From positions 41,905 to 105,904 of IMG/VR virus record IMGVR_UViG_3300017731_002846: a stretch of 64,000 nucleotides of DNA; one strand, given 5' to 3'. A program made the translations under genes and the position numbers. The notes beneath the pieces were generated by a model. It did no database searches and was not told the DNA's origin. It worked only from the letters and a program-made list of their open reading frames with translations. This document shows positions 3,098 to 63,876 of this stretch, in pieces. Numbering within the stretch: position 1 is the first letter of the stretch; each line of letters begins with the position of its first letter. The DNA is from a virus.

Positions 3098-3149
3098 GTT
3101 TTTAAAAAAAAAAATTCGATTTATAGGATAAATACTGTAATATAAAAAT

Positions 3150-3956
3150 ATGACAAAGAGAAAAATTCTTATTATGGGCTTACCAGGATCAGGCAAAACT
3201 ACTTTAGCTGAAATCTTAGTAAGAAAATTAAATGCCGCATGGTTTAATGCAGATGCAGTAAGACAAGAGATCCACAAGGACTTAGGTTTCACTGCAGAAG
3301 ACAGGCTCGAGCATTCAACTCGCATGGGCAAACTATGTGATTGGGCAAAACTCGGGGGGTCTTATGTAATCGCAGACTTTGTATGCCCAACTAAAGAAGC
3401 AAGGGAAGCTTTTAATCCTGACTTCGTCATCTGGGTAGATAGAATTCAAGAAGGTAGATATGCAGATACAAACAAAATGTTTGAAAAACCAGAAAATGCT
3501 GACGTTATATTAAAAGAAGGAACTCCTGACGAATGGGCAGAGCAAGCACTCGAAGGTTTATATAAAACAGAAGCATGGGACGATCAAGCCCCAACCGCAT
3601 TACTCATAGGCCGGTATCAACCTTTTCATATCGGACACAAAACATTAGTAGCAGAGTCTGTTAAAAGAACAGGTCAATGCTGTATAGCTCTAAGAAACGT
3701 GGCAGGTATAGATGAGAAAAATCCATACAATTTCGAGCAAGTTAAAAAAGAAATCGAAGCCGCTTGTGTTGAGTTTGGAGATAAAATAAAAATCGTTGAA
3801 CTGCCAAACATTACAGATATATTTTATGGACGCGGAGTTGGTTACAATATCGAGCAACTTGAATTAAGCAAAGAACTGCAAGCAGTTTCGGCAACTAAAA
3901 TCCGTGCAGGAGAAATCGGACAAGATGGTAAACCATTAGGCAAGAGGCCCGAATAA
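3150..3956 (+). CDS. Adenylylsulfate kinase-like domain fused to HIGH-family nucleotidyltransferase
   Basis: GLPGSGKTT P-loop, NADAVR, DLGF..EDR, ADFVCP, FEKP (CysC-like); C-terminal GRYQPFHIGH and VSATKIR. Confidence 0.85.
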   Translation: MTKRKILIMGLPGSGKTTLAEILVRKLNAAWFNADAVRQEIHKDLGFTAEDRLEHSTRMGKLCDWAKLGGSYVIADFVCPTKEAREAFNPDFVIWVDRIQEGRYADTNKMFEKPENADVILKEGTPDEWAEQALEGLYKTEAWDDQAPTALLIGRYQPFHIGHKTLVAESVKRTGQCCIALRNVAGIDEKNPYNFEQVKKEIEAACVEFGDKIKIVELPNITDIFYGRGVGYNIEQLELSKELQAVSATKIRAGEIGQDGKPLGKRPE

Positions 3957-4258
3957 TGGCATACGTAGTAACTGAAAAATGCGTGGACTGTAAGTTTACT
4001 AGCTGCGTTTCGGTATGCCCTGTAGATGCTTTTCACGAAACCCCAGATCGTTTATACATCAATCCAGAGTCCTGCATTGACTGCAATGCCTGTATGGATG
4101 AATGCCCTGTCGAAGCCATATACCCAGACATGGATGTGCCTGAGGAATTACAAGATTGGATCGAGCTAAACGAGCAAGCAGAGGAATACCCTCAATTGTT
4201 TGGGGAGAAAGAGCCTCTCAAGGGCCCTAAATGCGTTGACCCACAAGCGGACGAATAA
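3956..4258 (+). CDS. fdxA: FdxA-like 7Fe/8Fe ferredoxin
   Basis: CVDCKFTSCVSVCP and CIDCNACMDECP motifs plus acidic C-terminal extension. Confidence 0.92.
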   Translation: MAYVVTEKCVDCKFTSCVSVCPVDAFHETPDRLYINPESCIDCNACMDECPVEAIYPDMDVPEELQDWIELNEQAEEYPQLFGEKEPLKGPKCVDPQADE

Positions 4259-4296
4259 ATTATTACCCGTTAGCAAAAGCTAACTCTTCAAGAGAA

Positions 4297-4322
4297 AAAG
4301 CCCCCTAGCAATAGGGGGCTTT
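4297..4322. terminator. Bidirectional intrinsic terminator
   Basis: aaagccccct-agcaat-agggggcttt hairpin with A and T runs on both sides, between convergent genes. Confidence 0.85.
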
Positions 4323-4323
4323 A

Positions 4324-4476
4324 TTATTTAGATTTTTTCTTAGTCTTTTTAGACTGCATACAGACAGCGATCCTCTGCTTTACATCAGGATACTCTTTTC
4401 GCATGACCTTGTCAGCAATACATCTTGACATAAATCCAGAATCTGTTTCTGTTTTTGTTTTCTTTGGGATAGGCAT
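4324..4476 (-). CDS. Small basic phage protein, 50 aa (not in ORF track)
   Basis: MPIPKKTKTETDSGFMSRCIADKVMRKEYPDVKQRIAVCMQSKKTKKKSK; fills the gap between the tmRNA and the terminator; resembles a recurring small phage protein pattern (F.SRC..D....EYPD.KQR.AVC). Confidence 0.75.
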   Translation of the reverse strand: MPIPKKTKTETDSGFMSRCIADKVMRKEYPDVKQRIAVCMQSKKTKKKSK

Positions 4477-4488
4477 AATAAATTAAAA

Positions 4489-4852
4489 TGGTGGACGTGG
4501 CGGTAGTCGAAACCGCGTCTTTAAATCTTCAAGAAATATACATCTACAAGTTTAGTTTATTTTTTTTATAGTTATGATATAAACATCTAACTACTCGTTT
4601 CAGTTATTTACAGTTTGTGGAACAAGTAAACTTTTTCTGTTTTGCAGATACATAACCCCGCAATCTCAATATCTGCGTCAAGAGTTACGAGGTAGCGGAT
4701 ACTAGGCCGCTAAAGCAAGCTCTTCGCTTTTAGGCGAGTAAGCTTTGATACGTGACTTATTGCCATGTAAACTTTTGTGCCTTTTTAAGGAGCCAGACAC
4801 ACTCCTACTTGCAGTATACCAATTCAATTTAAATCAAATCCAGTACACGCCC
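4489..4852 (-). ncRNA. ssrA: tmRNA, 364 nt, tag peptide GNKSRIKAYSPKSEELALAA (4764-4702)
   Basis: 5' GGGCGTG pairs with CACGTCC-A-CCA 3' including the G3:U wobble; T-arm GCGGT-TTCGACT-ACCGC; internal ORF ending LALAA-TAG. Confidence 0.96.
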
Positions 4853-4880
4853 ATAAAATATTAAAGAACTAAATAATAAT

Positions 4881-4885
4881 TACAC
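4881..4885 (-). promoter_or_regulatory. GTGTA motif upstream of tmRNA (putative phage promoter)
   Basis: Same GTGTA plus AT-rich motif precedes at least 10 gene starts in the window. Confidence 0.6.
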
Positions 4886-4888
4886 TAG

Positions 4889-6013
4889 CTATTGCCCCTT
4901 AGTAATTTCTTGTTCGCCATCTTGGCTCACAATACTTGTTTGAGATCTAGCGGCTTCATATAATGCATTATAGTTTTTTGTAACCTTCTTGTATCTCCCG
5001 CGAGTGATTTCACGAAGAGATTCTTCAGTGATCCTACTAGGGCCTTCATCCTCAAACAACTTAAGTATTGCAAGATCTTTAAGAGTTACATCAACTTCCC
5101 ATTTAATTTGATACCCAAAATCAGGAATAGCCTGAGAGAGTTCGGGGGCAAATGCCCTTGGCTGATCTGCACTTTTAGACTCTGTCCAAGTAAATACAGG
5201 TACAACCCCATGCCAAGTTTCATGAAAAGCTCCAATATTAATTTTTTGCTCGACTATAGAGCCGTCAATCTTAGATGGATTGAGAGCATCAAATAAATTA
5301 TTATAAGCCAATGGAAAACCAAAGTCATGTTCTTCGTAACAATAAATATGCAAGTATTTAAACAAATTAAATGCTGACCAAGAACCATGATCTGCATTTT
5401 TTAATACAAGCCTCCTTTGAGCCGAAGGGTCAAGCTCTTTAAAGTTACCATAAAAACGATCAGTAAAATCGCAATAAGCATCGTGATCCTCTTTGCTAGG
5501 TTGGGAATTTAAATGCAAAGATATTGGCGCGGAAATATTTTCTTGAGCGCCTATTTCATCAAGGAACCAGGAATAAAAATTAATCTCTTTGATCGATTTT
5601 TCAACCACCGAGTCGTCGTCGTCAATTAATTTACAGAATTTATCAGGCTGAATAGACAAAGAAACCCCTTTGGTTACAGCCGTCCTGCCGATCTCTTTAA
5701 TTGCATTTAAAAGTTCACCATGTTCTGGCAAATCTGTGATAGATAAATCAGATGAAGGATCAGAAAGAATACCAAATACGGATGTATTTAATCGATAATG
5801 ATCGATTCCACTATCTCGGCAGAAATCAATAATCTTAACAGTAAGATTTAAATTACTTAAAATCTCGTCTTTTAATTTCTTGAGGGCAGCTTGATCACCC
5901 TGCTGCGAAGACAGCTCGGTGTAAGCTTTGCGGGTCATGCCCACAAAAGTGTTTGCCGGATCCTCTTGCTCGAGGATTTTTGAAGTGCAGACTAGTCCGT
6001 ATTTGGTATTCAT
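4889..6013 (-). CDS. UV-damage endonuclease (UvdE/UvsE)-fold protein, probably inactive
   Basis: YGLVC, NL..T.KI..F....GI.HYRL and RRLVL pattern match the UvdE TIM barrel, but most metal ligands are substituted. Confidence 0.75.
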   Translation of the reverse strand: MNTKYGLVCTSKILEQEDPANTFVGMTRKAYTELSSQQGDQAALKKLKDEILSNLNLTVKIIDFCRDSGIDHYRLNTSVFGILSDPSSDLSITDLPEHGELLNAIKEIGRTAVTKGVSLSIQPDKFCKLIDDDDSVVEKSIKEINFYSWFLDEIGAQENISAPISLHLNSQPSKEDHDAYCDFTDRFYGNFKELDPSAQRRLVLKNADHGSWSAFNLFKYLHIYCYEEHDFGFPLAYNNLFDALNPSKIDGSIVEQKINIGAFHETWHGVVPVFTWTESKSADQPRAFAPELSQAIPDFGYQIKWEVDVTLKDLAILKLFEDEGPSRITEESLREITRGRYKKVTKNYNALYEAARSQTSIVSQDGEQEITKGQ

Positions 6014-6027
6014 TAAATCCTTATATA

Positions 6028-6297
6028 TTAGATAAGATCAACTTCTTCGACTTCTTCAACTTCTTCAGCAACCTTGCCAGAAGACTTAGATCCACCTTGA
6101 TCCTGATCTTTTTGCTTATAGATCCGAAAGTCAGGAGCCTTAGGATTATCATCCTTAAACTTATTCTTAAAAAGAATAACTTTCTCTCCATTAACTTGAC
6201 CGGTCAGGTACTTCTCATTGGAACCCTGCTTGACGTTTACCCAAAGTGCACCCATTTCTCGGTTGCTCCACTCTTTATTTTCAGTATTTTCACTCAT
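6028..6297 (-). CDS. DUF736-like putative ssDNA-binding protein
   Basis: GALW...KYLTG...LFKN..K....PDFRIY with flexible linker and acidic tail EEVEEVEEVDLI. Confidence 0.6.
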   Translation of the reverse strand: MSENTENKEWSNREMGALWVNVKQGSNEKYLTGQVNGEKVILFKNKFKDDNPKAPDFRIYKQKDQDQGGSKSSGKVAEEVEEVEEVDLI

Positions 6298-6412
6298 AAT
6301 TTATTATATAGTATATTAATATTTAATTTAAAATTTTCTAAGTTCACCAGTATTTTTACAAAGTATATATGCCGCAAATAGCATAATTATTATTTTGATT
6401 ATTATCATGTCT

Positions 6413-6949
6413 TTATCTGTATTGTTTTCTTAGTAGTCGCCAGCGATCAGAATCTATAGGTTTGCTGCCATTATCTATAGCATACAACATATCTATGATT
6501 TCGTCAAGCGAATTATAAATATATTTATGTGGCATCATACCAAGCATCCATAGTGGGGTCTTTGCTTTGCCGCCTTCCATGCTAATAAAGATTGGCTTTT
6601 TCATGCGTACTGCCGTTACAATTTCTTCACCGCTACCCCAACTTGCAACCTCTGGAACAAGATGAGCAATAATAAAGTCACTGCGATCAACAAGGTTCAA
6701 ATCATATGAACGAACGGTCTTCATTTTCTCCGCAACACGATCATATTGCTTGGTCTTCATCCAAGTTTCCATCTCGATGCGAGAAGCTTCATCCTCTTCT
6801 ACATCCTTAATAAAAGGTTTTTCGTAGGGATTAAAGCAAGTAATATTAAGGTCCGAAAGTTTTTCGGTTACTTCTTGCCGCCAATCTCGGCCACTCAAAT
6901 ACTGCATGTGGCCAACTAAATATGTTTTTGTTTTATATAAGAGATTCAT
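6413..6949 (-). CDS. Nucleoside 2-deoxyribosyltransferase-like protein
   Basis: YLVG.M....DWR...FNP...DL.LVDRSDFIIA...SWGS.EE pattern. Confidence 0.75.
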   Translation of the reverse strand: MNLLYKTKTYLVGHMQYLSGRDWRQEVTEKLSDLNITCFNPYEKPFIKDVEEDEASRIEMETWMKTKQYDRVAEKMKTVRSYDLNLVDRSDFIIAHLVPEVASWGSGEEIVTAVRMKKPIFISMEGGKAKTPLWMLGMMPHKYIYNSLDEIIDMLYAIDNGSKPIDSDRWRLLRKQYR

Positions 6950-6959
6950 CTTGCCATAT

Positions 6960-6988
6960 AATATAGCAAAAATGAATTAAGTTGTCAA
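6960..6988 (-). promoter_or_regulatory. sigma70-type promoter
   Basis: TTGACA (6988-6983), 17 nt, TATATT (6965-6960). Confidence 0.7.
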
Positions 6989-6991
6989 GTA

Positions 6992-7237
6992 TTAATTATT
7001 ATTTAAACTTTCTAATATAACTTTTAAATCATCTGCATCAGAGCAAGCATCAATGTCCTCTTGGATTTTATTATATTTAACACGAATTTCTGCACGAGAT
7101 TTTTCCGCTTCAGCCGCATCATTCCCGGGAATTTGCTTCATAATGATAGCATCATATGGTTCGAATTCTTTTTCCCTTTCCACACGTCGAGAAGAGTGAA
7201 CAATTTCTTTCGCTTTGTTTAAATTAATTTTTATCAT
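6992..7237 (-). CDS. Tail fibre accessory/chaperone-like protein
   Basis: Likely start MIKINLNKAKEI at 7237; resembles small proteins that follow tail fibres in marine phages. Confidence 0.65.
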   Translation of the reverse strand: MIKINLNKAKEIVHSSRRVEREKEFEPYDAIIMKQIPGNDAAEAEKSRAEIRVKYNKIQEDIDACSDADDLKVILESLNNN

Positions 7238-8045
7238 CGGTAACCTCCTCAGTTTCTGCCACAACATGTCCCCTTCGGCTTTCTGGGGGTAATTTATTAA
7301 ATAATTGAAGTAATTTTTGCTGGTGTGTGCTGACCGCAGCCTGTGATTCAGCAACTAAAGAATTTGCATCAACAATAGAAAATTTAACTTGATTTATTTT
7401 ATTATTCTGATTGTTTAATTTTTCAACGAATTGATCGGATTCTAACCTGGCATTTGCTGCCTCTGTTTTATTATTAAATAATTTATCTTGGGCTTTGAAT
7501 GCATTTTTTGAGATCTTTCGAAGGTCAACGGCGGATTGTTTTTCCTCTTCGCTAGCTTCCTCTCCTTTATCTGCTACAATTTTCTCTGCATTTTCGGCGG
7601 CCAACTTTTTCTCTTTCCAATCAGACTTAGCAGCAAAAGCAGAATCCTTGGTGCCTGCCCATACTTTTTCTTTTTCGGTGGCTAAATTATTTAAGCTGGC
7701 ATGTTCAGCAGAAAGCTCTTCTAGTTCTGTCTCTAAGGCTTTTAAATTATTTTCAAAAGATTCTAATTGTTCTTGGCGGCTAGATAAAAGTTGTTTACTA
7801 TTAGATAGTAATTGTTTTGCGTTCGTTTCTCCACCGATGCCGTCATTTAAGTCGGATTCTTCAATGTCCCAAGCCGCACGGAATACACGATCCTGCGGAA
7901 GCTCCTCGGTTGTACCGACCCTGTATAGCACACCAAATGGCAACATTTTTTGAGCTTGTTCATGCACCCCTTCAACATCCAAAGAATCAACAAAATGAGT
8001 GATATGTAAATTGCCTTCTTGTTTATATATTAAAATGTTTTTCAT
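7224..8045 (-). CDS. Tail-fibre-associated domain plus long coiled coil
   Basis: N-terminal ...ELPQDRVFRAAW domain followed by about 190 aa of E/K/A-rich helical sequence; directly follows the fibre gene. Confidence 0.6.
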   Translation of the reverse strand: MKNILIYKQEGNLHITHFVDSLDVEGVHEQAQKMLPFGVLYRVGTTEELPQDRVFRAAWDIEESDLNDGIGGETNAKQLLSNSKQLLSSRQEQLESFENNLKALETELEELSAEHASLNNLATEKEKVWAGTKDSAFAAKSDWKEKKLAAENAEKIVADKGEEASEEEKQSAVDLRKISKNAFKAQDKLFNNKTEAANARLESDQFVEKLNNQNNKINQVKFSIVDANSLVAESQAAVSTHQQKLLQLFNKLPPESRRGHVVAETEEVTDDKN

Positions 8046-8057
8046 GACTCTTGAGCG

Positions 8058-11000
8058 TTAATGAATGACTACAGAAACTTTCTGATCAGCTGCTTGATTC
8101 GGGAACGTTCCGGCATCTCTACCCACTAGTATATCAACCTTTGTGGATGTGGCATTTCTATAACATGGATCGAACGGGGCAGTGGCCAATTCAATACCAA
8201 TAGTTACCACAGGGTTTGGGGTTGAGTTCGTATAGTTGACAGTATAATCGCCTGTGCCATTATCCGTTATACTTGCTACATTATAACTATTTGTTATGCT
8301 TGCAGTTAAATCTGCGCTGGCTCCATCAAATGCCACATAGGCACGTGGCCCGCCGCCAGTGCTATCGAAGTACCCATCTAGCCGGACCGCAGCCACGTTA
8401 TTAAAGCTCAAGTATATCCCTCTATCGCCAGCATTATTTGTAAATACCGGAGCAATTAATTGTTTAGAATTTGGATGACGAGGGCGGTTATATGTAGTTG
8501 AAGCTTGGTCCTCGACTAATTGAAGGGAGCCTAGATATGAACCGTCTAACTCTTGTTTTTGTGATGCATAAAGAGATGCAGTGGTCCAGGAATCGTTGGT
8601 TCTAGCCCAAAAGACCACCGACGATGCAGTGTCAGGTATACCCATGGCGGTCGTGGTGGTAAACCCGGAGCTAAGTGTTACCTGACTATCTAGGAAAATT
8701 GGCCCGCCGCCGGAACCTCCTCCGCCATTTGTTTGCACCCAACCAGTTCCATCTATATAAACATAAAGCTTGCCGACCGATTCATTGAACCACAAATCTC
8801 CATCTGATGGGTTAGTTGGAGCCACCGTACCTGTTGAGACATTTGTGCCGCCGCTACCGCCGCTGACAGCTTTCATATGACCGATAATTCTTAACCAATT
8901 TTTATTGAGTGTTGAAATAAATATACCTCTCGTTCCAGCGCCTGTTTCTTGCACCGGAACCAGATATTCTGAAGTCTCATATACATTGCCACCCCCGTCG
9001 CCAGCACCTCTTCCAGAATAATGAACCAATTGATCAGTCCAACCAGTTGCCGTATCTGAACCTGTATGTGTTTTGTGTGTTTTAAAATGTGCATATTCCT
9101 GCCAGCCCAAAGAAAGATGCTGAAAAGATATATGCAAATATTCAATGTCTGAATCCGTTACTTCGTAAAATCCATCTGCTAAATCTTCATGAGGCCAGAC
9201 TTGCGTTAATTCAGTGCCGCCGCCAGTGCCGCCGCCAGTGCCGCCGCCATTGGTTTGAACCCATCCAGTGCCACTTATATAAACATAGAGCTCACCTGTT
9301 GTTTCATTGAACCATAAATCGCCCTCCGATGCCCCAGTTGGAGCAGGCTCTGTTGAGACTATTACACTTGAGCCGCCACCTGGAACAGGCGCCCAGTTTC
9401 CGTCGGCACGTAAATATTCGCCGCCAGAAACTTCAAGAGCAGTTGGGCCAGGAACCAATCCTTTTGTGTCTTGAGAAAAAACCTCAGTCTTTACTTTAAT
9501 GGCCAGCTCATTAATTTTATTGCGAATATCCTCTAATGTGATTTCAAGACCCGGGCCTGGAATAGTACCAACTCCGCCAGGAGAAGCAGGAGAGCCATCA
9601 TCAACATCCTCGCCAAAAACAATTATAGAGCCAGTCATCGCATTTGGATGATTGTCGCATTGATATGTATAGTTGCCAGCACCAACACCAGCCAGTTTGA
9701 TGATATGCCGACCCTCTCCTCGTCCGTGGTTTAGGTAATGGTCTGCTCCCCATACACCTTTTGTGTCGGTTCCTCCGCCGCTAAGATAAGCTGCATAAGC
9801 AGCAGTTAAATCTGCATGATTATCGACATATGAATCATAATTATCCGAACGTAATACTGCAGTAAATAAATCGTTGTCATTATAAATATAAATCGGATGA
9901 TTAATGATCGAGTCCGTATGATTGATGTATTCTGCAGTGCCATCAACAAAATCAGCAACATCATTCATTGTAGGATATGTCCCTGGATCGTTTAAGAAAA
10001 AGTCTTCTTGGCCAGTAGTTGCGCCACGTAGAAGCAAAACTCCATAAAGTTCCTGAATTTTAGAAGCATCAGGAGTGGATGCTAAAAATGTACTAGTAAA
10101 AGCTGCCTTGCTTCGATAATCAGCTATATAAAAATCATCGCCTGTGCGAAGATAAAGAGTCGAGTCGCTTGCAGCTGAAGGGCTATCTACTTCAGTCAGC
10201 AACTTCGACCAATCGTTTGGATCAAGCGTCACATCTTTATACCATAAATAGGCACCAAAAGAAGGGTCGTTGGTAATCAAATAAGCACCTTCAGTATCAT
10301 GAGAAGAAATAGAAAGACCTTCATCCCTCCATGCAGGAGCCCCAGCACCATCAGTCTTCCATACCTTGTTAAGATTACCAGCACCAGCCGCTACCACCCC
10401 ATGTTTGTCGACTGAATTTGGAAAACTAGAGAGAGGGTAAAAATTGTTGTCGGCCGCTAACAGTTCAAGGTCGGTAATTTCTTGCGAATCAGGAGCACGA
10501 ACGAGGCCAGATACTCCTACTGAGAATAAATTAGCACCGCCGGGTAAAACTGCCCAGTTGCCGTCTGCAGCAAGATATCGATCATCCGCTGTGGTGGAGG
10601 CTGGTACAAGACCAGAAGCTGTAGTGCTAAATAGATCGTATGTCGCATTTTCATCATCTCTCCATGCAGGAGCCCCAGCACCATCAGTCTTCCATACCTT
10701 GTTAAGATTACCAGCACCAGCCGCTACCACCCCATGTTTATCGACTGAATTTGGAAAACTGGAGAGAGGGTAAAAATTGTTGTCGGCCGCTAACAGTTCA
10801 AGGCCGGTACTTTCTTGCGAATCAGGAGCACGAACGAGGCCAGATACTCCTACTGAGAATAAATTATTTACTGTATCTTCATCTTCTCTCCAGCCGGGTA
10901 CTCCAGCATTATCAGTCTTCCATACTTTATTAACTTGTCCAGCGCTAGAGGGTACAATGCCTGAGACAGTATCAGTGTTAACTGGCAATAAATCAAACAA

Positions 11001-11123
11001 ATTAGAAATACTAAACCTATATGTGTCCCCACCATCAAAATCGCAAACAGCTAACACATCGTTTGTTGTTATTGTGCTTATAGGATCTGGAAGATCTATC
11101 TCTCTAATTGTTTTAAATGACAT
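8058..11123 (-). CDS. Long tail fibre / receptor-binding protein, 1021 aa
   Basis: Gly/Thr-rich; repeats SGLVP..., YLxADGNW and GDLWFNE..G.LYVY..GTGWVQ; C-terminal AYVAFDG...SYNVASITDNGTGDYTVN module typical of phage fibres. Confidence 0.85.
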   Translation of the reverse strand: MSFKTIREIDLPDPISTITTNDVLAVCDFDGGDTYRFSISNLFDLLPVNTDTVSGIVPSSAGQVNKVWKTDNAGVPGWREDEDTVNNLFSVGVSGLVRAPDSQESTGLELLAADNNFYPLSSFPNSVDKHGVVAAGAGNLNKVWKTDGAGAPAWRDDENATYDLFSTTASGLVPASTTADDRYLAADGNWAVLPGGANLFSVGVSGLVRAPDSQEITDLELLAADNNFYPLSSFPNSVDKHGVVAAGAGNLNKVWKTDGAGAPAWRDEGLSISSHDTEGAYLITNDPSFGAYLWYKDVTLDPNDWSKLLTEVDSPSAASDSTLYLRTGDDFYIADYRSKAAFTSTFLASTPDASKIQELYGVLLLRGATTGQEDFFLNDPGTYPTMNDVADFVDGTAEYINHTDSIINHPIYIYNDNDLFTAVLRSDNYDSYVDNHADLTAAYAAYLSGGGTDTKGVWGADHYLNHGRGEGRHIIKLAGVGAGNYTYQCDNHPNAMTGSIIVFGEDVDDGSPASPGGVGTIPGPGLEITLEDIRNKINELAIKVKTEVFSQDTKGLVPGPTALEVSGGEYLRADGNWAPVPGGGSSVIVSTEPAPTGASEGDLWFNETTGELYVYISGTGWVQTNGGGTGGGTGGGTELTQVWPHEDLADGFYEVTDSDIEYLHISFQHLSLGWQEYAHFKTHKTHTGSDTATGWTDQLVHYSGRGAGDGGGNVYETSEYLVPVQETGAGTRGIFISTLNKNWLRIIGHMKAVSGGSGGTNVSTGTVAPTNPSDGDLWFNESVGKLYVYIDGTGWVQTNGGGGSGGGPIFLDSQVTLSSGFTTTTAMGIPDTASSVVFWARTNDSWTTASLYASQKQELDGSYLGSLQLVEDQASTTYNRPRHPNSKQLIAPVFTNNAGDRGIYLSFNNVAAVRLDGYFDSTGGGPRAYVAFDGASADLTASITNSYNVASITDNGTGDYTVNYTNSTPNPVVTIGIELATAPFDPCYRNATSTKVDILVGRDAGTFPNQAADQKVSVVIH
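9212..9249. repeat. 12-bp tandem repeat x3 (GGGT linker)
   Basis: cagtgccgccgc three times. Confidence 0.9.
10327..10866. repeat. ~207-bp direct repeat inside the fibre gene (10327-10533 and 10660-10866)
   Basis: Period 333 nt (111 codons), about 4 mismatches by eye. Confidence 0.92.
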
Positions 11124-11165
11124 TATGTTTATTGTTCTTCGGTATATTTATATACACATGAATAG

Positions 11166-11942
11166 TTACAGTTCATAGATTAAAATAGTTACTATACCTG
11201 TGTCGACATTGGTTCCATCTGTTAGTTTAATATTTAAGTCCAACTTATTGGCTGATTTTGTTATATGTAGATTTGCGAAATCACTAGTATTACAAATAGA
11301 TGCAATAACCTGATAGTCATTAATTGAAGCGAAAGCGCTGAAATTAAATCCTACTCTATAAAAACCGCTACTGATCTTATTTACAGCGAAACCCGAGCTA
11401 CCCCTTACAGTAGGTGATGCAGATAAGGTAAAATCTATTCCATACTTTGGGGATAAAGAATTACTAATTTGTCCATCTATATTTACATCTCCATGGATAT
11501 CGACCACTCCGTTATCCATCTCAACAAAAGTGTCGTTTTGCAGTTCACCAACAATCAGTTCATCTGTTAAGTGGCCAGATATTCCATCAATATCTTGATA
11601 GTATCCACTAACACCGCTAACCAGTTGTTGATTATAATCATAAATAAAATTTTCAGAACCAACAAGAGATGAACCGCTGACGAACTGAATATATTGATCC
11701 CCAACAAGATTAGATGCCGCCCCTCCACGAGGCTCACCAAGTTCAGCTATTTTAGACCAATCAGTGTTGTTATTCTCTCCGGTTTTTTCGTATAAAAAAT
11801 TAGTAGAAAGATCTAAAAACTTAGAACCCCGCATGCCGGCCGCTTTTAAACTCTTACCTTGACCAGTAGGCGGAGCAAAGTCAGAAATAAAAGGTTGACG
11901 TATACCTAAATTTGAGTTTACAAAATCTTCAAAAGCTCCCAT
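11166..11942 (-). CDS. Virion/tail protein
   Basis: Lies in the fibre cluster; beta-rich with VSG/ISG repeats and a C-terminal ...SGFYRVGF...DYQVIAS module. Confidence 0.6.
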   Translation of the reverse strand: MGAFEDFVNSNLGIRQPFISDFAPPTGQGKSLKAAGMRGSKFLDLSTNFLYEKTGENNNTDWSKIAELGEPRGGAASNLVGDQYIQFVSGSSLVGSENFIYDYNQQLVSGVSGYYQDIDGISGHLTDELIVGELQNDTFVEMDNGVVDIHGDVNIDGQISNSLSPKYGIDFTLSASPTVRGSSGFAVNKISSGFYRVGFNFSAFASINDYQVIASICNTSDFANLHITKSANKLDLNIKLTDGTNVDTGIVTILIYEL

Positions 11943-11944
11943 AA

Positions 11945-14641: not shown

Positions 14642-14650
14642 AAGGCGAAA

Positions 14651-16135: not shown

Positions 16136-16173
16136 AATATGTTTATACACATATAACAGATGAAATAATTAAT

Positions 16174-18582: not shown

Positions 18583-18604
18583 ATGTATATTATATATATT
18601 ACAC

Positions 18605-21184: not shown

Positions 21185-21408
21185 AAATTTTTAATGGAAT
21201 CATTTTTGCACTGTTCCAGTGCATTTTTGCTCGATTCAATTGAGTTAATTTGATCAACTATAGAATTAAACTCAGATCTATTCTTAAACCAATAATCATT
21301 AGGTTTGGATGTAATTGTATTATACAAGCAGTGAGCCTCATCTATCAGGATTGATAACTCATTAGTATATAAATCAAGGTGCATATTAATTTTATCTTTT
21401 AATTTCAT
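21181..21408 (-). CDS. Hypothetical helical protein between exonuclease and dnaE
   Basis: ATGA overlaps with both neighbours when started at 21408. Confidence 0.6.
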   Translation of the reverse strand: MKLKDKINMHLDLYTNELSILIDEAHCLYNTITSKPNDYWFKNRSEFNSIVDQINSIESSKNALEQCKNDSIKNL

Positions 21409-22046: not shown

Positions 22047-22049
22047 AAT

Positions 22050-22832: not shown

Positions 22833-22838
22833 ACATAC

Positions 22839-22867
22839 AAAGTAACGCAATCTTAACAAAAAGTCAA
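22839..22867 (-). promoter_or_regulatory. sigma70-type promoter, leaderless
   Basis: TTGACT (22867-22862), 17 nt, TACTTT (22844-22839), 6 nt, GTG. Confidence 0.7.
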
Positions 22868-22868
22868 G

Positions 22869-24032: not shown

Positions 24033-24299
24033 TTAAATTTCCCCAAGCCTGTCTTGATTATTGCAGTCAATAATTTTTTTATTTAATAATTCAAAATGAA
24101 CTAAAGTAAAATATTTACCGCTTTTTTTGTTTGAAGAGTATTCATATCCATAATTAGACAAGAATCTACTAAGCTCTGCTATATATTCATATTTAATATG
24201 AACAATTATTTTAAATGGAGCCCCGCACTCTGAAACATCTTGAGAAAACAAGGAATCTTCAGCATATTCGTGGCAAATTGCCTCTATTGAATGTGTCAT
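24033..24299 (-). CDS. Hypothetical protein
   Basis: ATG at 24299 lies 10 nt after a GTGTA motif. Confidence 0.6.
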   Translation of the reverse strand: MTHSIEAICHEYAEDSLFSQDVSECGAPFKIIVHIKYEYIAELSRFLSNYGYEYSSNKKSGKYFTLVHFELLNKKIIDCNNQDRLGEI

Positions 24300-24338
24300 T
24301 AAAATAATGTACACGCACAATTGCAATAATATACAAGA

Positions 24339-29257: not shown

Positions 29258-29264
29258 GACGGTT

Positions 29265-29293
29265 ATATTAGCAGAAAAAAATTAATTAGTCAA
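29265..29293 (-). promoter_or_regulatory. sigma70-type promoter, leaderless
   Basis: TTGACT (29293-29288), 17 nt, TAATAT (29270-29265), 7 nt, ATG of dnaB. Confidence 0.7.
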
Positions 29294-29564: not shown

Positions 29565-29584
29565 TATATTTAGTTACACATGTG

Positions 29585-31455: not shown

Positions 31456-31484
31456 ATAATAGCATTCAGTGACAAATTAGTCAA
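31456..31484 (-). promoter_or_regulatory. sigma70-type promoter, leaderless
   Basis: TTGACT (31484-31479), 17 nt, TATTAT (31461-31456), 6 nt, GTG. Confidence 0.7.
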
Positions 31485-33269: not shown

Positions 33270-33285
33270 GCATATATAATATACA

Positions 33286-33720
33286 CTATCTTCTCTTACT
33301 TGGGATGGCATAAAACCCTACAACCATAAAACATAAATCAATAAACGAAGAAAGCATGAGCCCGCCCGTTAACTTAACCACCTCCCAGTCTTTACCCCCG
33401 AAAATCCAACTAAAAAACCCCCACTTTGAGCTATCTCCCCTTGGTACGATAATTTCATAAGAAATATCAGGGTTGTGGGCATAATAAATCATGAGGTAAC
33501 ACATAGTAAAAGTAATAGACATGAATAGCATGCGGCGAGTAATCTTAACAAATGGATCACTGGCCTGCCGAGATTGATTATCTAGAATCGCCTTCATCAT
33601 TTCAGTATCTCTAGCGGCCAGCATCATTTGATCTTGCCTTTTTTGCTCCAGCCAGGAATTAATTAAATTGCAGGCCAGCTTAATACCAGCCCCTAAGATT
33701 GTGTTGAAGATTGGACCCAT
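33286..33720 (-). CDS. Membrane protein, possibly holin-like
   Basis: Amphipathic N-terminus, two TM segments, basic C-terminus. Confidence 0.5.
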   Translation of the reverse strand: MGPIFNTILGAGIKLACNLINSWLEQKRQDQMMLAARDTEMMKAILDNQSRQASDPFVKITRRMLFMSITFTMCYLMIYYAHNPDISYEIIVPRGDSSKWGFFSWIFGGKDWEVVKLTGGLMLSSFIDLCFMVVGFYAIPSKRR

Positions 33721-33911: not shown

Positions 33912-33925
33912 AGTGATATGTACAC

Positions 33926-42215: not shown

Positions 42216-42217
42216 TG

Positions 42218-42739: not shown

Positions 42740-42740
42740 A

Positions 42741-46057: not shown

Positions 46058-46062
46058 AGTAT

Positions 46063-46536
46063 TTATATTACACTATATAGAAGTTCAGTTCTGTTTTGTT
46101 TTACAAATTTAGCTTTATTTTGCATAAACGACTCTATGTTTTTTTTGTTTTGTTTAAAGTCTTTTGTTTTTACTGGGTTAATAGCAATGCAGAAATATTT
46201 AATTGTATACTTGGAGAAATCGATAGACTCTAAAACTTCAAGTGCAATATCGGGGTCAAGTATAGATAGGAAATCAATAGATGTTGGAGAGTCGGACAAA
46301 GATTTGTAAACTTTATACCCTAAGTATTTCTCGCCTACAGATGTATTTGAGTCTTTGTTATTTTTAAACGGGCTAATTTCAACACATGTTAAATCTTTCG
46401 CAAAGCCTGTTTCGCGTAAGAACCAGCGGTCACTCAACCATTTACTTGTCGAGTTAACAACTTCGCCGCTATCAAGTTTTATTAAATTAATAACATGCTT
46501 ATTTGGGCCTTCAAGATGTGATGTTAAATTTTCCAT
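46063..46536 (-). CDS. FkbM-like methyltransferase fragment or degenerate homologue
   Basis: IDFLSI....LEVLESIDFSKY.I..FCI resembles the FkbM C-terminal half; SAM motif degenerate. Confidence 0.5.
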   Translation of the reverse strand: MENLTSHLEGPNKHVINLIKLDSGEVVNSTSKWLSDRWFLRETGFAKDLTCVEISPFKNNKDSNTSVGEKYLGYKVYKSLSDSPTSIDFLSILDPDIALEVLESIDFSKYTIKYFCIAINPVKTKDFKQNKKNIESFMQNKAKFVKQNRTELLYSVI

Positions 46537-58584: not shown

Positions 58585-58602
58585 ATATTATATAATAATA
58601 AT

Positions 58603-61059: not shown

Positions 61060-61097
61060 GAGGTAGTTGTTTACACAATTGTAATTGTATATAATGA

Positions 61098-61137
61098 AAT
61101 ATCAACAATATTGATATTGTAAAAGCATTTTACAATA
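61098..61137. repeat. Two overlapping inverted repeats upstream of nrdA
   Basis: aatatcaa-N5-ttgatatt (61098-61118) and tattgtaaaa-N3-ttttacaata (61115-61137). Confidence 0.65.
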
Positions 61138-61183
61138 AAATACCGCGTATGGCAAGCAAAAAACTTGCTAAGTTATTAACAAT

Positions 61184-62014
61184 TTACTCTTTAACGGCAG
61201 ATTCGGACCTAGACCAGTCTAGATCGCTCCTGACATTAAGGTTAATATCCCATGCGGATTTTAAAAGCTTGGGGTCTAAACCATTTTTTTCAAATGTTTT
61301 AATTAATGCGTTAAGATCTTTAGGGAAGCATGTCCCTCCGAATCCTTTATCTCCATCATGGCCAGGAACTTGAAAATGAGATTGCCCTATTCTTTTATCG
61401 CTCATAACTCCATTAATTATCGAGTGCCAGTCTAGCCCGAGTTTATCAATCAAAATGTGAATTTCGTTAAAGAAACTAACTTTTGTAGCAAAAAAGCAAT
61501 TAGCTATATACTTTACAGACTCAGATTCGTCACTTTTCATTAGAACTGTCTGAATATTAGGAAAAGCTTTATTGAATAATTGAATAACTTTATTGCCAAC
61601 ACTCTTCTTTTTTGTATAACCAACAATATGTCGATCCGCATTTAAGAAGTCTTCTTTAGCAAATTTAGCGGTTAGGAATTCAGGGGAATGAACTATATTT
61701 AAGCTGGGATGCTTTGATTGAAGAGATTTAGTAGTCCCAATTGGCACTGTTGATTTAATAATAAAGATAGCTTTCGAGCCAATGGACTCAATCTCCTCAA
61801 AGCATGATTCGATAATAGATAGATTACAGTCAGCGCCCATTGCATCTCTCATGGGAGTTGGAACACTAATGAAAATAAAATCCTGAAGCAATGTTTCCTC
61901 TAATGTGTTTTGGGATATGTTTGGGTTTTTATCAAAAACCTTTACATTATAAGTATTGAATCCATTAGCTATAGCCGAGCCAACGAAGCCATTGCCAATA
62001 ACCCCTATTTTCAT
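61184..62014 (-). CDS. ugd: UDP-glucose/GDP-mannose dehydrogenase family (short form)
   Basis: GNGFVG, ISVPTP, KSTVP.GT, SPEFL, KY.AN.F.A.K..F.NE, GFGGTCFPKD. Confidence 0.92.
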   Translation of the reverse strand: MKIGVIGNGFVGSAIANGFNTYNVKVFDKNPNISQNTLEETLLQDFIFISVPTPMRDAMGADCNLSIIESCFEEIESIGSKAIFIIKSTVPIGTTKSLQSKHPSLNIVHSPEFLTAKFAKEDFLNADRHIVGYTKKKSVGNKVIQLFNKAFPNIQTVLMKSDESESVKYIANCFFATKVSFFNEIHILIDKLGLDWHSIINGVMSDKRIGQSHFQVPGHDGDKGFGGTCFPKDLNALIKTFEKNGLDPKLLKSAWDINLNVRSDLDWSRSESAVKE

Positions 62015-62922
62015 TATGGCCTGTTTTCTTCTATCCAATCTTCAAATTTTTGAATGGGGTTCCATTTAAGCATATTTTTAGCCTTATTGTTATCAGCCAA
62101 TGTCTCACGAGATTCTCCAGGCCTGGAATCGATATGAACATGATCTCCATCAACAAGTTTAACAATATCAAGAACTGAATGATTTGTGCCAGTACCGAGA
62201 TTAAACATTTCCCCGATAATTTCTTTGTTTTCTGATTCTCCAGCTAGGTACATAGCTTGGGCAATATCTTTAACATAAGTATAGTCTCTTGTTTGTAGAC
62301 CATCTCCTACCACCGTCATTGGTTTTCCAGCCTCCTTCTGCCTGAAGAATAACCCAACAACCGGAGCATAGTCTCCGGCTAAAGGTTGGCGTTCGCCGTA
62401 AACATTAAAGAAGCGAAATAAAACTGTTTCAACTCCAAAAAGTTTTGTATACATCTTGCACAATTCTTCGCAGTTAGCTTTACTAACCGAATAAGGATTT
62501 AAGCAATCATTGGGCATATCTTCTTTTAATGGAATAGGGTTTACTAAGCCATAACACGAAGAAGTGCCAGCAAACATAACCCTCTTGCATTTGTTTAGTC
62601 TAGCTGCCTGTAACACATTTACGGTTCCAAGGGAGTTATTTTTAACGGCATCAGATGGATCTTGTACACAAATTTGAATACGAGACCTTGCGGCTAAATG
62701 AAATACTAAATCCACACCTTTAAACAAGGGTTCTAATTTTTCAAAATCACAAATATCAACTTTATGATTTTCTGTATCATCTCTCCAGTTGAATTGGGTA
62801 TTTGCGGTAGAGGATTCATCATCAACAACTACGACATCATGACCAGCATTAATTAATATTTCAACAAGGTGGCTACCAATAAAACCAGCCCCTCCAGTAA
62901 CTAAACATTTCTTCTTAGACAT
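62014..62922 (-). CDS. NAD-dependent nucleotide-sugar epimerase/dehydratase
   Basis: TGGAGFIGS, HLAA, YSVSK, RFFNVYG, GDGLQTRDYTYV. Confidence 0.92.
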   Translation of the reverse strand: MSKKKCLVTGGAGFIGSHLVEILINAGHDVVVVDDESSTANTQFNWRDDTENHKVDICDFEKLEPLFKGVDLVFHLAARSRIQICVQDPSDAVKNNSLGTVNVLQAARLNKCKRVMFAGTSSCYGLVNPIPLKEDMPNDCLNPYSVSKANCEELCKMYTKLFGVETVLFRFFNVYGERQPLAGDYAPVVGLFFRQKEAGKPMTVVGDGLQTRDYTYVKDIAQAMYLAGESENKEIIGEMFNLGTGTNHSVLDIVKLVDGDHVHIDSRPGESRETLADNNKAKNMLKWNPIQKFEDWIEENRP

Positions 62923-62931
62923 AAGTAATTA

Positions 62932-63876
62932 TTACACGTTATTTTGATACCATTTATAAGTTTTTTTAAGACCTTCTTTTAGTGTATGTTTTTGTGAGTA
63001 CCCTAGGTTTTTGATTCTTGAGTTATCCATCTTTTTCCTGAATGTACCGTCAGGTTTGGATGGGTCAAATGTCACCTCACCTTCGTACCCTATGATTTGC
63101 TTGATATTCTCAAGTAGGTCCCTGATGGACACCTCGTCTTCAGATCCACAGTTTAAGTGAGATATACCGGAAGAATATATGGATTTAGCACTAATACTCT
63201 CTAAGCAAAAAACAATTGCATCAGCCAAATCATCAACATATAAAAATTCTCTTAAAGGATTACCACTACCCCAAACTTCAACAGAATTAGAATTAGATAG
63301 TTTCGCTGCATTTACTTTATTAATAAAAGCAGGCAAGACATGCGATGTTTGGAGGTCGAAATTATCTCCAGGGCCATATAGGTTGCAAGGCATTAATGAA
63401 TAAAAGTTAGATCCGTATTGTTGGTAAAAAGCTTCACACATTTTAAGAGCCGCTATCTTTGCGATTGCATATGGCTCGTTAGTATTCTCTAGGACACCGG
63501 TAAGCAGGTACTCTTCCTTGATTGGTATATCTGCGTCTTTTGGATATATACAAGAAGACCCTAAATTAATTAGTTTTTGAACACCACTAGAATGGCTCGC
63601 CTTTATAATGTTAGAAGATATTTGTATGTTGTCATATATAAAATCAGCCCTATATGTGTTATTAGCTAAAATACCGCCAACCTTTGCTGCGCACAAAATA
63701 ACATAATCAAATCTTTCCTGGGAAAATAGACTATCAACACTTTCTTGATTTGATAAATCTACCTGGTTTCTTGTTTTGGTGACAATATTATCGTAACCAG
63801 AAGATTGTAGTTTATTTACAACCGAGGATCCGACCATACCTCGATGACCAGCAACGAAGATCTTTGAGCTTTTCAC
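62932..63876 (-). CDS. fcl: GDP-L-fucose synthase
   Basis: GHRGMVGS, AAKVGGI.AN, LGSSCIYPK, YAIAK, NLYGPGDNF, WGSG.PLREFL, KPDGT.RK. Confidence 0.96.
   Translation of the reverse strand: MKSSKIFVAGHRGMVGSSVVNKLQSSGYDNIVTKTRNQVDLSNQESVDSLFSQERFDYVILCAAKVGGILANNTYRADFIYDNIQISSNIIKASHSSGVQKLINLGSSCIYPKDADIPIKEEYLLTGVLENTNEPYAIAKIAALKMCEAFYQQYGSNFYSLMPCNLYGPGDNFDLQTSHVLPAFINKVNAAKLSNSNSVEVWGSGNPLREFLYVDDLADAIVFCLESISAKSIYSSGISHLNCGSEDEVSIRDLLENIKQIIGYEGEVTFDPSKPDGTFRKKMDNSRIKNLGYSQKHTLKEGLKKTYKWYQNNV

What the first reader, a model, noticed from the sequence alone, without database searches (positions are those of the whole stretch)
3135..62937. Recurring GTGTA-N10-start motif: a candidate phage-specific, -10-only, leaderless promoter
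Seen: minus-strand GTGTA (plus-strand tacac) sits upstream of starts at 16146 (10 nt spacer), 24310 (10), 29575 (10), 56858 (10), 62933 (10), 33921 (9), 46069 (11), 33282 (12), 61072 (12), 18600 (17) and 11153 (29), and before the tmRNA (4881). The only plus-strand operon has CTGTA at 3135, 10 nt before its ATG. No -35 box or Shine-Dalgarno accompanies the motif. If the TA is the start of a -10 hexamer, a 10-nt spacer puts +1 on the start codon. Inference: a promoter read by a phage sigma factor or RNA polymerase, analogous to T4 late TATAAATA but with a different sequence. It also corrects several start calls in the ORF track.
Basis: partly seen in the sequence, partly recalled or inferred. 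Interest (0 to 1): 0.75.

Follow-up and report, generated by a model that had tools for sequence, protein, structure and literature searches.

The report
Phage GTGTA promoters abutting start codons
An uncultured marine phage, probably of Verrucomicrobia, and dozens of relatives place the invariant word GTGTA 9-13 bases before many start codons; it is most likely a one-piece promoter read by a phage-made sigma factor, giving messages with almost no leader, which is a new example of a known phage strategy.

Summary
In a blind scan of all 1024 pentamers, GTGTA is the only word enriched 9-11 nt before ORF-opening start codons: 13 of 74 copies against a 1.7% background, P=4e-10. In 47 related phage loci it is 117 of 812 (P=2e-73), with spacers peaking at 9, 10 and 12. 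All 15 one-mismatch variants sit near background, so the CTGTA at 3135 is not a supported variant.

There is no -35 box and no Shine-Dalgarno sequence. The motif also precedes a phage tmRNA and three of four plus-strand units of the 105.9-kb contig, so it is a promoter, not a ribosome site.

A second class, TTGACA-N17-TAnnnT-N6-ATG, drives early genes with the same leaderless geometry.

No phage RNA polymerase was detected. The family carries up to three sigma classes. A conserved ~200-aa one is in 7 of 7 near-complete relatives. It is missing from three distant records; two of these lack the motif and the third was weak in one locus. By synteny it should lie just beyond this contig's end.

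No transcription start was mapped.

The closest analogue is the phiEco32 gp36 promoter (AATGTA).

The scan has reported this motif before in related genomes. The verdict is a new variant of a known kind.

The parts
16146..16150 (-). GTGTA element, 10 nt before the ATG at 16135 (tail-fibre protein, 494 aa)
   Evidence: It corrects the naive GTG start at 16150.
18600..18604 (-). GTGTA element, 17 nt before the ATG at 18582 (ClpB-like AAA+ ATPase)
   Evidence: Orthologues in eight relatives carry GTGTA at N9-12 with diverged flanks.
11153..11157 (-). GTGTA element, 29 nt before the ATG at 11123 (1021-aa tail protein). This site would give a leader of about 19 nt.
24310..24314 (-). GTGTA element, 10 nt before the ATG at 24299 (88-aa ORF)
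   Evidence: It corrects the TTG start at 24326.
29575..29579 (-). GTGTA element, 10 nt before the GTG at 29564 (92-aa ORF)
33282..33286 (-). GTGTA element, 12 nt before the ATG at 33269 (511-aa virion protein). It overlaps the upstream gene's stop codon.
33921..33925 (-). GTGTA element, 9 nt before the ATG at 33911 (63-aa ORF)
46069..46073 (-). GTGTA element, 11 nt before the ATG at 46057 (276 aa, HATPase_c_3)
56858..56862 (-). GTGTA element, 10 nt before the GTG at 56847 (105-aa ORF)
56557..56561 (-). GTGTA element, 19 nt before the ATG at 56537 (93-aa ORF).
61072..61076 (-). GTGTA element, 12 nt before the ATG at 61059 (ribonucleotide reductase large subunit)
   Evidence: Two relatives' loci (L021, L026) have GTGTA at N10 before an ~817-aa ORF with a near-identical N-terminus (MDIKVKK.../MNIKVKK...), apparently the RNR orthologue; orthology was not tested.
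62933..62937 (-). GTGTA element, 10 nt before the ATG at 62922 (NAD-dependent sugar epimerase/dehydratase). The TA of the motif is part of the upstream gene's TAA stop.
4881..4885 (-). GTGTA element, 28 nt before the mature 5' end of the tmRNA. The predicted precursor start is about 17-18 nt upstream of the mature end.
4489..4852 (-). Phage-encoded tmRNA gene
   Evidence: Rfam RF00023, 114.9 bits, E=3.6e-44, full length.
3135..3139 (+). CTGTA, 10 nt before the ATG at 3150. This is not a supported GTGTA variant. It reads better as the weak host-type promoter TTCGAT-N17-TAATAT-N6-ATG.
   Evidence: sequence. CTGTA scores 2.1% against a 2.0% background.
29265..29293 (-). Host-type promoter TTGACT-N17-TAATAT, 7 nt before the ATG at 29257 (DnaB-like helicase operon)
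31456..31484 (-). Host-type promoter TTGACT-N17-TATTAT, 6 nt before the GTG at 31449
6960..6988 (-). Host-type promoter TTGACA-N17-TATATT, 10 nt before the ATG at 6949 (nucleoside deoxyribosyltransferase-like)
3069..3097 (-). Host-type promoter TTGACA-N17-TAAACT, 9 nt before the ATG at 3059
22839..22867 (-). Host-type promoter TTGACT-N17-TACTTT, 6 nt before the GTG at 22832

Best explanation
GTGTA is the sole sequence-specific element of a phage-specific middle/late promoter class.

Proposed cascade (inferred):
1. Host RNA polymerase with the host primary sigma first reads the phage's TTGACA-N17-TAnnnT promoters.
2. These drive the early genes, including the phage sigma genes.
3. A phage sigma then directs the host core enzyme to GTGTA. 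The motif lies at about -15 to -11, flanked by A/T tracts, with no -35 box.
4. Transcription starts about 10-11 nt after the motif's final A.
5. Because the start codon sits 9-13 nt after the motif, the mRNA begins at the AUG or GUG or 1-3 nt before it. It would then be translated as a leaderless message without a Shine-Dalgarno sequence.

The best candidate reader is the conserved ~200-aa two-domain sigma ('sigC'). It is present in all near-complete relatives and, by synteny, is predicted to lie just past this contig's right end. The ECF-like sigma encoded in this contig (genome 21338-21874, outside the window) is the second candidate.

Shown here: the motif's position, invariance, conservation, phage specificity and co-occurrence with sigC.

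Inferred: the transcription start, which sigma reads the motif, and the temporal class.
For: Statistics:
- GTGTA is the only pentamer enriched 9-11 nt before ORF-opening starts (P=3.8e-10).
- In 47 related loci P=1.7e-73.
- Spacers peak sharply at 9-13 nt.
- Every single-base variant is near background (at most 3.4% against 20%).

Promoter rather than ribosome site:
- The motif precedes the tmRNA.
- Three of the four plus-strand units in a minus-strand genome start with GTGTA-N9.
- There is no Shine-Dalgarno sequence.

Geometry:
- The TA of the motif sits where T-12/A-11 sits in about 11 TTGACA-N17-hexamer-N6/7-start promoters of the same genome (six exact TTGACn-N17-TAnnnT-N6/7-start matches of at least 50 codons, five more with a 16-nt spacer, CAnnnT or a 9-10-nt gap).
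- Sites with spacer 12-13 carry G or A at +10/+11.

Conservation and avoidance:
- GTGTA is invariant at orthologous promoters of the ClpB-like gene, the sheath gene and the next gene, while the flanks vary.
- It is depleted elsewhere: 30 copies against 53.5 expected on the antisense strand.

Phage-specific:
- Five putative host MAGs show 61-91 matches against 50-82 for the control pattern.

- No multisubunit or T7-type RNA polymerase was detected in four complete relatives; the T7-type model had no positive control.
- Sigma70_r2 hits occur in 5 of 5 genomes searched.
- sigC is in 33 of 39 records and 7 of 7 that are at least 90% complete. Among others it is absent from three distant records: two showed no motif enrichment record-wide, and the third was only weak in its one locus.
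- The sigC model has pLDDT 81, and the listed Foldseek hits (top 50) are all sigma factors.
- In four of ten relatives' loci a TTGAC box lies about 20-45 nt before the sigC start; no canonical -10 hexamer at a 17-nt spacing was found.
- The ECF-like sigma lies in an operon headed by such a promoter.

Precedent:
- phiEco32 gp36 reads a single AATGTA element centred at -11.5, with no -35 box (PMC12276001, PMC8948821).
Against: - No transcription start has been mapped. RNA-library contigs covered the phage only in fragments and gave no ends.
- sigC is not in this 68%-complete contig, so its presence in this phage is only a synteny prediction.
- sigC has a sigma-4-like domain, yet no -35 element is visible.
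- A few sites (spacers 17, 19, 29) would give leaders without an obvious ribosome site.
- The putative host shows no leaderless signature in 360 kb, so efficient leaderless translation there is unproven.
- Many motifs overlap the 3' end or stop codon of the upstream gene, so read-through transcription also reaches these genes.
Confidence: 0.68

Rival explanations
1. The host primary-sigma holoenzyme itself reads GTGTA as an unusual extended -10 promoter. This would resemble the middle and late promoters of Thermus phages P23-45 and phiYS40. Small phage proteins that disable -35 recognition might help.
For: - Thermus phages use -10-only or TG(TG)-extended promoters and leaderless mRNAs with host RNA polymerase (PMC5758890; bioRxiv 10.64898/2026.04.20.719267).
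- GTG+TA resembles TGTG-n-TA.
- The TA occupies the -12/-11 position.
Against: - The GTG abuts TA with no spacer base, unlike TGnTAnnnT.
- The sixth hexamer position is T in only 45% of sites, whereas the best TTGACA-class promoters of the same genome nearly all end the hexamer in T (read by eye, not tallied).
- The five bases are invariant, far stricter than a primary-sigma -10 element.
- The motif is not enriched before genes in putative host genomes.
- Its distribution follows a phage sigma.
Confidence: 0.13
2. The ECF-like sigma encoded in this contig (178 aa, genome 21338-21874) is the reader of GTGTA, not sigC.
For: - It is the only sigma found in this contig.
- It matches the ECF family over its full length (TIGR02989, 1.5e-30, 106 bits, below that model's 124.55-bit cut-off; TIGR02937, 1e-17).
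- It lies in an early operon.
- ECF -10 elements are short and strict.
Against: - It is found in only 8 of 39 related records.
- It is missing from two complete genomes (G015, G040) that are rich in GTGTA-N9-10-ATG: 25 against 3 and 22 against 7 control matches.
- It evolves fast (23-25% identity among syntenic copies) while the motif is invariant.
- No AAC-type -35 box accompanies the motif.
Confidence: 0.1
3. GTGTA acts on RNA, not DNA. It would be a non-Shine-Dalgarno ribosome-binding or re-initiation signal, or a processing site that trims leaders.
For: - It lies at a fixed short distance from start codons.
- Many copies overlap the stop codon of the upstream gene.
- Genes are tightly packed.
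Against: - It precedes a non-coding tmRNA.
- It heads divergent plus-strand units that need their own promoter.
- Most genes inside operons lack it.
- I saw no complementarity to the conserved 16S 3' tail. This rests on my own knowledge of that sequence; the host 16S was not examined.
- It is depleted on the antisense strand, which an RNA signal would not explain.
Confidence: 0.05
4. An unrecognised phage RNA polymerase, for example a highly diverged phiKZ-type enzyme, reads GTGTA.
For: - The tail sheath's nearest cultured relatives are phiKZ-like jumbo phages (27-31% identity).
- Those phages carry very diverged RNA polymerases that Pfam models can miss.
Against: - No hit to Rpb1, Rpb2 or T7-type domains in four complete relatives.
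- Early genes carry textbook TTGACA/TAnnnT promoters, so the phage depends on host RNA polymerase.
- Sigma genes are conserved.
Confidence: 0.04

Closest known systems
Middle/late promoters of Escherichia phage phiEco32, read by phage sigma gp36 with gp79 (PMC8948821, PMC12276001)
   Same: - A single strictly conserved element (tAATGTAtA, core AATGTA centred at -11.5) shares TGTA with GTGTA and lies at nearly the same distance from the start.
- There is no -35 box.
- A phage-made sigma works on host core polymerase.
- Early genes are read from host sigma-70 promoters.
   Different: - The first bases differ (GTGTA against AATGTA).
- Here the element abuts the start codon, so messages would be leaderless.
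- The candidate sigma is not detectably related to gp36 (hhalign probability 0.07). It keeps a sigma-4-like domain, which gp36 is reported to lack.
- The host is probably a verrucomicrobium, and the virus is a large myovirus.
- No gp79 homologue was looked for.
Leaderless middle/late transcription of Thermus phages phiYS40, P23-45 and Lalka27a (Sevostyanova 2007 as cited in PMC12340547; PMC5758890; bioRxiv 10.64898/2026.04.20.719267)
   Same: - A -10 element lies 6 nt before the initiator codon.
- Most transcripts are leaderless.
- Early promoters are TTGACA/TAnnnT, and later ones lack a -35 box and carry a class-specific -10 motif.
   Different: - Those promoters are read by host sigma-A holoenzyme, sometimes modified by small phage proteins, and keep the TAnnnT hexamer (TG(TG)-n-TAnnnT, or TAGGGT).
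- Here T-7 is not conserved, the GTG abuts TA, and phage sigma genes are present.
- The Thermus host is itself rich in leaderless genes. The putative host here showed no such signature.
T4 late promoters (TATAAATA) read by gp55 with gp33 and the sliding clamp (PMC2988020)
   Same: - A single invariant element at -10 with no -35 box.
- A dedicated phage sigma on host core polymerase.
   Different: - The sequence is different.
- T4 late mRNAs have leaders with Shine-Dalgarno sites.
- gp55 lacks sigma-4 and needs gp33 and gp45. No such partners were tested here.

Membership tests
Single-element promoters read by a phage sigma (phiEco32 gp36 type) | One strictly conserved element near -10 and no -35 element | tested here: met
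   Position matrix of 140 unique sites, k-mer search upstream, and mismatch scan.
Single-element promoters read by a phage sigma (phiEco32 gp36 type) | Transcription starts 6-9 bp downstream of the element | not testable with these tools
   This is only inferred, from start-codon spacing (9-13 nt) and G/A enrichment at +10/+11. RNA contigs gave no ends.
Single-element promoters read by a phage sigma (phiEco32 gp36 type) | The phage encodes its own sigma factor | tested here: met
   An ECF-like sigma lies in this contig. sigC is in 33 of 39 related records and has a sigma fold. sigC itself was not found in this 68%-complete contig.
Single-element promoters read by a phage sigma (phiEco32 gp36 type) | The sigma is homologous to gp36 and lacks region 4 | tested here: not met
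   hhalign of the sigC alignment against gp36 gives probability 0.07. sigC has a C-terminal helix-turn-helix domain that matches sigma-4 of FliA.
Extended -10 promoters of the primary sigma (TGnTAnnnT) | TG at -15/-14, separated by one base from a TAnnnT hexamer with conserved T-7 | tested here: not met
   The GTG directly abuts TA. The sixth hexamer position is T 45% and A 41%.
Extended -10 promoters of the primary sigma (TGnTAnnnT) | Used by the host's own genes | tested here: not met
   GTGTA-N9-10-ATG gives 61-91 matches against 50-82 control matches in five Opitutales MAGs. There is no spacer peak in 360 kb. That these MAGs represent the host is itself inferred.
Leaderless mRNA | The promoter's -10 element lies 5-8 nt before the initiator codon and there is no Shine-Dalgarno sequence | tested here: met
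   Both promoter classes show this.
Leaderless mRNA | The 5' triphosphate end lies at the A or G of the start codon | not testable with these tools
   No run with raw reads was available, and read laying returned contigs only.
T4-type late promoter (gp55) | TATAAATA at -10 | tested here: not met
   The enriched word is GTGTA. No A/T-only word was enriched at this position.

The most novel reading that the evidence does not exclude
The phage imposes a leaderless regime on a host that does not itself use one. A dedicated phage sigma would read a bare 5-bp word and start exactly at the AUG. Phage messages would then bypass Shine-Dalgarno-dependent initiation, and the phage could gain a translational advantage, for instance by altering initiation factors or using its own tmRNA and ClpB-like chaperone. 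That would be a combined transcription-translation takeover in abundant marine Verrucomicrobia phages.
Probability: 0.15. Interest if true: 0.8.

Novelty: new variant of a known kind. Interest (0 to 1): 0.55.

Why it matters
- Annotation. The motif gives a simple, testable rule for annotating transcription units and true start codons across a large, widespread family of uncultured marine phages. The window's DNA turned up in runs from 14 studies, and 47 related loci were found.
- Candidate pair. It links the motif to one candidate sigma that could be expressed and tested with core RNA polymerase in vitro.
- Orthogonal parts. A 5-bp, one-element promoter with its own sigma would be a compact orthogonal expression pair.
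- Host. The 84-95% identical DUF1501 gene ties the phage to marine Opitutales, a group for which I know of no cultured phage (my knowledge; one literature search found none).
- Leaderless translation. If leaderless expression is confirmed in a host that lacks it, this becomes a useful system for studying how leaderless translation is favoured during infection.

Tried and rejected
Relatives were reached through the search for related loci instead.
- A single-protein scan of viral contigs with the sheath protein found nothing. An alignment was needed.
- RNA evidence. Three RNA-library runs held 5-10% of the words. Laid on window 4400-24399, they gave short scattered contigs with no usable ends, so nothing can be said about start sites, expression level or silent parts.
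- The phiYS40 paper (PMC1885378) is not held. Its content is cited only through other papers and my own memory.
- The idea that this is a phiYS40 relative was dropped. The DnaE and sheath proteins have no close cultured relatives.
- A search for a -35 box found none. The enriched G+C-rich words upstream are a conserved hairpin shared by 11 orthologous loci, not a promoter box.
- The generic sigma-70 and terminator scans are at chance level overall. Only the best hits coincide with gene starts, and no terminators were seen just upstream of GTGTA sites in this window.
- The host leaderless test was crude (start codons assigned naively, one MAG, 360 kb) and found no peak. This is not proof of absence.
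- Literature searches for GTGTA promoters and for Verrucomicrobia phages gave nothing relevant.
- The T7-type polymerase family search had no positive control.

Full report
**What the window is.** The window is bases 41905-105904 of a 105.9-kb IMG/VR virus contig rated 68% complete. It has 36% G+C, and almost all genes lie on the minus strand.

It encodes the following:
- virion proteins: tail sheath, tail fibres and other structural proteins;
- a replication set: DnaE-type polymerase, DnaB, primase, UvsX-like recombinase;
- ribonucleotide reductase and a ClpB-like ATPase;
- a long glycan-synthesis block;
- a tmRNA.

It is a large myovirus. The sheath's nearest cultured relatives are phiKZ-like phages at only 27-31% identity. 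Its DNA is found in seawater and marine virome runs from 14 studies.

**The observation.** All listed sites are present at the stated coordinates and spacers. The total number of GTGTA copies is not raised (51 against 67 expected). The signal lies in position.

I scored every pentamer on both strands of the whole contig for lying 9-11 nt before a start codon that opens an ORF of at least 60 codons. GTGTA is first, with 13 of 74 copies against a background of 1.7% (P=3.8e-10, Bonferroni 3.9e-7). No other word comes near.

An alignment of sheath homologues brought in 47 related loci. Pooled, GTGTA scores 117 of 812 against 1.5% (P=1.7e-73).

The distance from the motif to the first ORF-opening start peaks at 9 (74 sites), 10 (34), 12 (32), 13 (11) and 11 (10). 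Other distances hold 1-9 each, mostly 3-5.

All fifteen one-mismatch variants sit near background (at most 3.4%, against 20% for GTGTA). The element is therefore five near-invariant bases, and the CTGTA at 3135 is not a supported variant. That site reads better as a weak host-type promoter, TTCGAT-N17-TAATAT-N6-ATG.

**Anatomy.** A matrix of 140 unique sites shows A/T tracts on both sides. There is no conserved position in the -35 region and no Shine-Dalgarno sequence. The base where a primary-sigma hexamer has its invariant T-7 is T 45% and A 41%.

A k-mer search upstream found only a G+C-rich hairpin shared by 11 orthologous loci.

In sites with spacer 12 or 13, G or A is enriched at +10/+11 after the motif. 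In spacer-9 and spacer-10 sites that position is the A of the ATG. This fits a start about 10-11 nt after the motif's last base. The leaders would then be 0-3 nt long.

Several motifs overlap the stop codon of the upstream gene (for example GTG-TAA at 62933), so the promoters are embedded in a tightly packed genome.

**A second class with the same geometry.** About 11 sites in the contig read TTGACA-N17-TAnnnT followed by 6-7 nt and a start codon (six exact matches before ORFs of at least 50 codons, the rest with a 16-nt spacer, CAnnnT or a 9-10-nt gap); the distance from TTGAC to the start peaks at 35-36.

They cluster in the small-gene region at 0-24 kb of the contig. In the window they stand before the DnaB operon (29293) and before the genes starting at 31449, 22832, 6949 and 3059. 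In the best of these the hexamer ends in T.

The TA of GTGTA-N10-ATG falls exactly where T-12/A-11 falls in this class. This is the strongest internal argument that GTGTA is a -10-type element placed to start at the codon.

**Promoter, not an RNA signal.**
- The motif stands 28 nt before the mature 5' end of the tmRNA (Rfam 114.9 bits).
- Three of the four plus-strand units in this minus-strand genome begin with GTGTA-N9.
- Most genes inside operons lack the motif.
- At orthologous promoters of the ClpB-like gene, the sheath gene and the gene after it, GTGTA is invariant while the flanks and spacers have diverged.
- GTGTA is depleted elsewhere. There are 30 copies against 53.5 expected on the mostly antisense strand, the seventh most avoided of 1024 words. 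On the coding strand, about half of the 44 copies are the promoter sites.

**Who reads it.** No Rpb1 or Rpb2 domain was found in this contig or in four complete relatives. The T7-type model also found nothing, but that search had no positive control.

Sigma70_r2 hits occur in all five genomes searched. Three sigma classes emerge.

| Class | Size | Distribution | Notes |
|---|---|---|---|
| A, ECF-like | about 180 aa | 8 of 39 records, 5 of 7 complete | In this contig at genome 21338-21874, in an operon headed by a TTGACT-N17-TATACT promoter. Best match TIGR02989, the Rhodopirellula/Verrucomicrobium family, E=1.5e-30. Syntenic copies share only 23-25% identity. Missing from complete genomes that are rich in the motif. 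|
| B | about 260 aa | seen in the loci of three complete relatives; 249-282-aa Sigma70_r2 ORFs in three more records may be the same class | Not studied further. |
| C ('sigC') | about 200 aa | 33 of 39 records, 7 of 7 at least 90% complete | Well conserved (mean column identity 57%). The copy in G026 is broken by stop codons. |

sigC is missing only from this contig, from two other fragments, and from three distant records. Two of those showed no motif enrichment record-wide, and the third was weak in its one locus.

Its model (pLDDT 81) matches only sigma factors among the 50 Foldseek hits listed: sigma-32, sigma-A, sigma-E, AlgU and WhiG. PHROG 351 and the PDB profile search agree.

In four of ten relatives' loci a TTGAC box lies about 20-45 nt before the sigC start; no canonical -10 hexamer at a 17-nt spacing was found.

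By synteny with the closest relative (sigC at 93.4 kb, with an offset of about 14-16 kb), sigC should lie about 2-4 kb beyond this contig's right end.

I therefore rank sigC first and the ECF-like sigma second. This ranking rests on co-occurrence only.

**Host.** The DUF1501 gene (24339-25646) is 84-95% identical in protein to genes on contigs of marine Opitutales (Verrucomicrobiota) MAGs of 2.1-2.5 Mb. Those MAGs do not hold the phage sheath gene. This points to a recent exchange with that group, and the ECF sigma's family fits the same superphylum.

In five such MAGs, GTGTA-N9-10-ATG is no more common than a reversed control: 61-91 against 50-82. For comparison, ten matches lie in the 106-kb phage contig.

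In 360 kb of one MAG there is no peak of GTGTA, TTGAC or TAnnnT at leaderless distances. That test was crude. Taken at face value, the motif is phage-specific and the leaderless layout may be phage-specific too.

**Comparison with known systems.** The closest analogue is phiEco32. Its middle and late promoters are a single element, tAATGTAtA (AATGTA centred at -11.5), with no -35 box. They are read by phage sigma gp36, and early genes use host sigma-70 (PMC8948821, PMC12276001). The TGTA core and its distance to the start agree within 1-2 nt.

Membership of that family fails on the protein side. sigC shows no relation to gp36 and keeps a sigma-4-like domain.

Thermus phages supply the precedent for leaderless phage transcription with class-specific -10 elements. 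Those are read by host sigma-A and keep TAnnnT (PMC5758890; bioRxiv 10.64898/2026.04.20.719267).

T4 late promoters share the one-element logic only.

**Limits.**
- No start site was mapped. The RNA-library contigs were too sparse.
- The temporal class is inferred from gene content and from the promoter cascade.
- The host assignment rests on one gene.

**Earlier work in the scan.** The scan has reported the same motif in several related genomes, and follow-ups reached the same reading. My analysis was done before I read those notes, and it agrees with them.

This report adds:
- the sigma phyletic argument favouring sigC;
- the Opitutales link;
- the host-genome control;
- the mismatch scan that removes CTGTA;
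- the start-position inference.

**Verdict.** This is a new variant of a known kind of phage promoter.

Noticed in passing
window 4489-4852 (-): A full-length phage-encoded tmRNA (Rfam 114.9 bits). ARAGORN did not call it. A strong bidirectional terminator hairpin lies at 4297-4322, about 165 nt beyond its 3' end (a 50-codon ORF, 4324-4476, lies between).
   Followed up: partly
window 24339-25646 (-): A DUF1501 gene (sulfatase/phosphatase-clan family). Its protein is 84-95% identical to genes in marine Opitutales MAGs that lack the phage sheath. It is probably a recently host-derived auxiliary gene and the best clue to the host.
   Followed up: partly
contig 515-23836 (outside the window) and window 3097, 6988, 22867, 29293, 31484: A class of textbook TTGACA-N17-TAnnnT promoters placed exactly 6-7 nt before start codons. 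Early genes would therefore also be leaderless. No such peak was seen in 360 kb of a putative host genome.
   Followed up: partly
contig 21338-21874 (-), outside the window (L052:1186-1722): An ECF-like sigma factor whose best match is the Rhodopirellula/Verrucomicrobium family TIGR02989. Syntenic copies in relatives share only 23-25% identity. Its own promoter motif is unknown.
   Followed up: partly
G026:C1:109798-110363 (a related record): The otherwise universal sigC gene is interrupted by TGA, TAG and TAA stops in one 90%-complete relative. It could be a broken gene, an assembly error or a recoding event.
   Followed up: no
L025, L018/L045, L038/L036 (related loci): Other words are strongly enriched 9-11 nt before starts in single relatives: ACAGA 20 of 91 in L025, AACGC/CAACG in L018 and L045, ATTAC/TTACT in L038 and L036. 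These may be repeated gene cassettes or further promoter classes.
   Followed up: no
contig 27001-27651 and 28996-29625 (outside the window): Two ORFs (216 and 209 aa) share an identical 5' end (ATGATCTTTTGGAATACACAATCTGTTTTT). They look like recent tandem paralogues in the glycan/sulfotransferase block.
   Followed up: no
related loci, about 20-45 nt upstream of some GTGTA sites: A conserved G+C-rich inverted repeat (GGGGTCGCCCA / TGGGCGACCCC) recurs in 11 loci just upstream of a GTGTA promoter. It is probably a terminator that separates units.
   Followed up: no
window 33926-54444: A run of about 25 ORFs of 170-310 aa. It opens with an NAD-dependent sugar epimerase/dehydratase gene (33926-34918). 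A similar gene (62014-62922) and an APS-kinase fusion (3150-3956) lie elsewhere in the window. This matches the sulfated-glycan pathway noted by other readers. Only one of these genes (45227-46057) has its own GTGTA promoter at a typical 9-13-nt spacing (two further GTGTA copies lie 40 and about 47 nt before the starts at 37332 and 35493).
   Followed up: no
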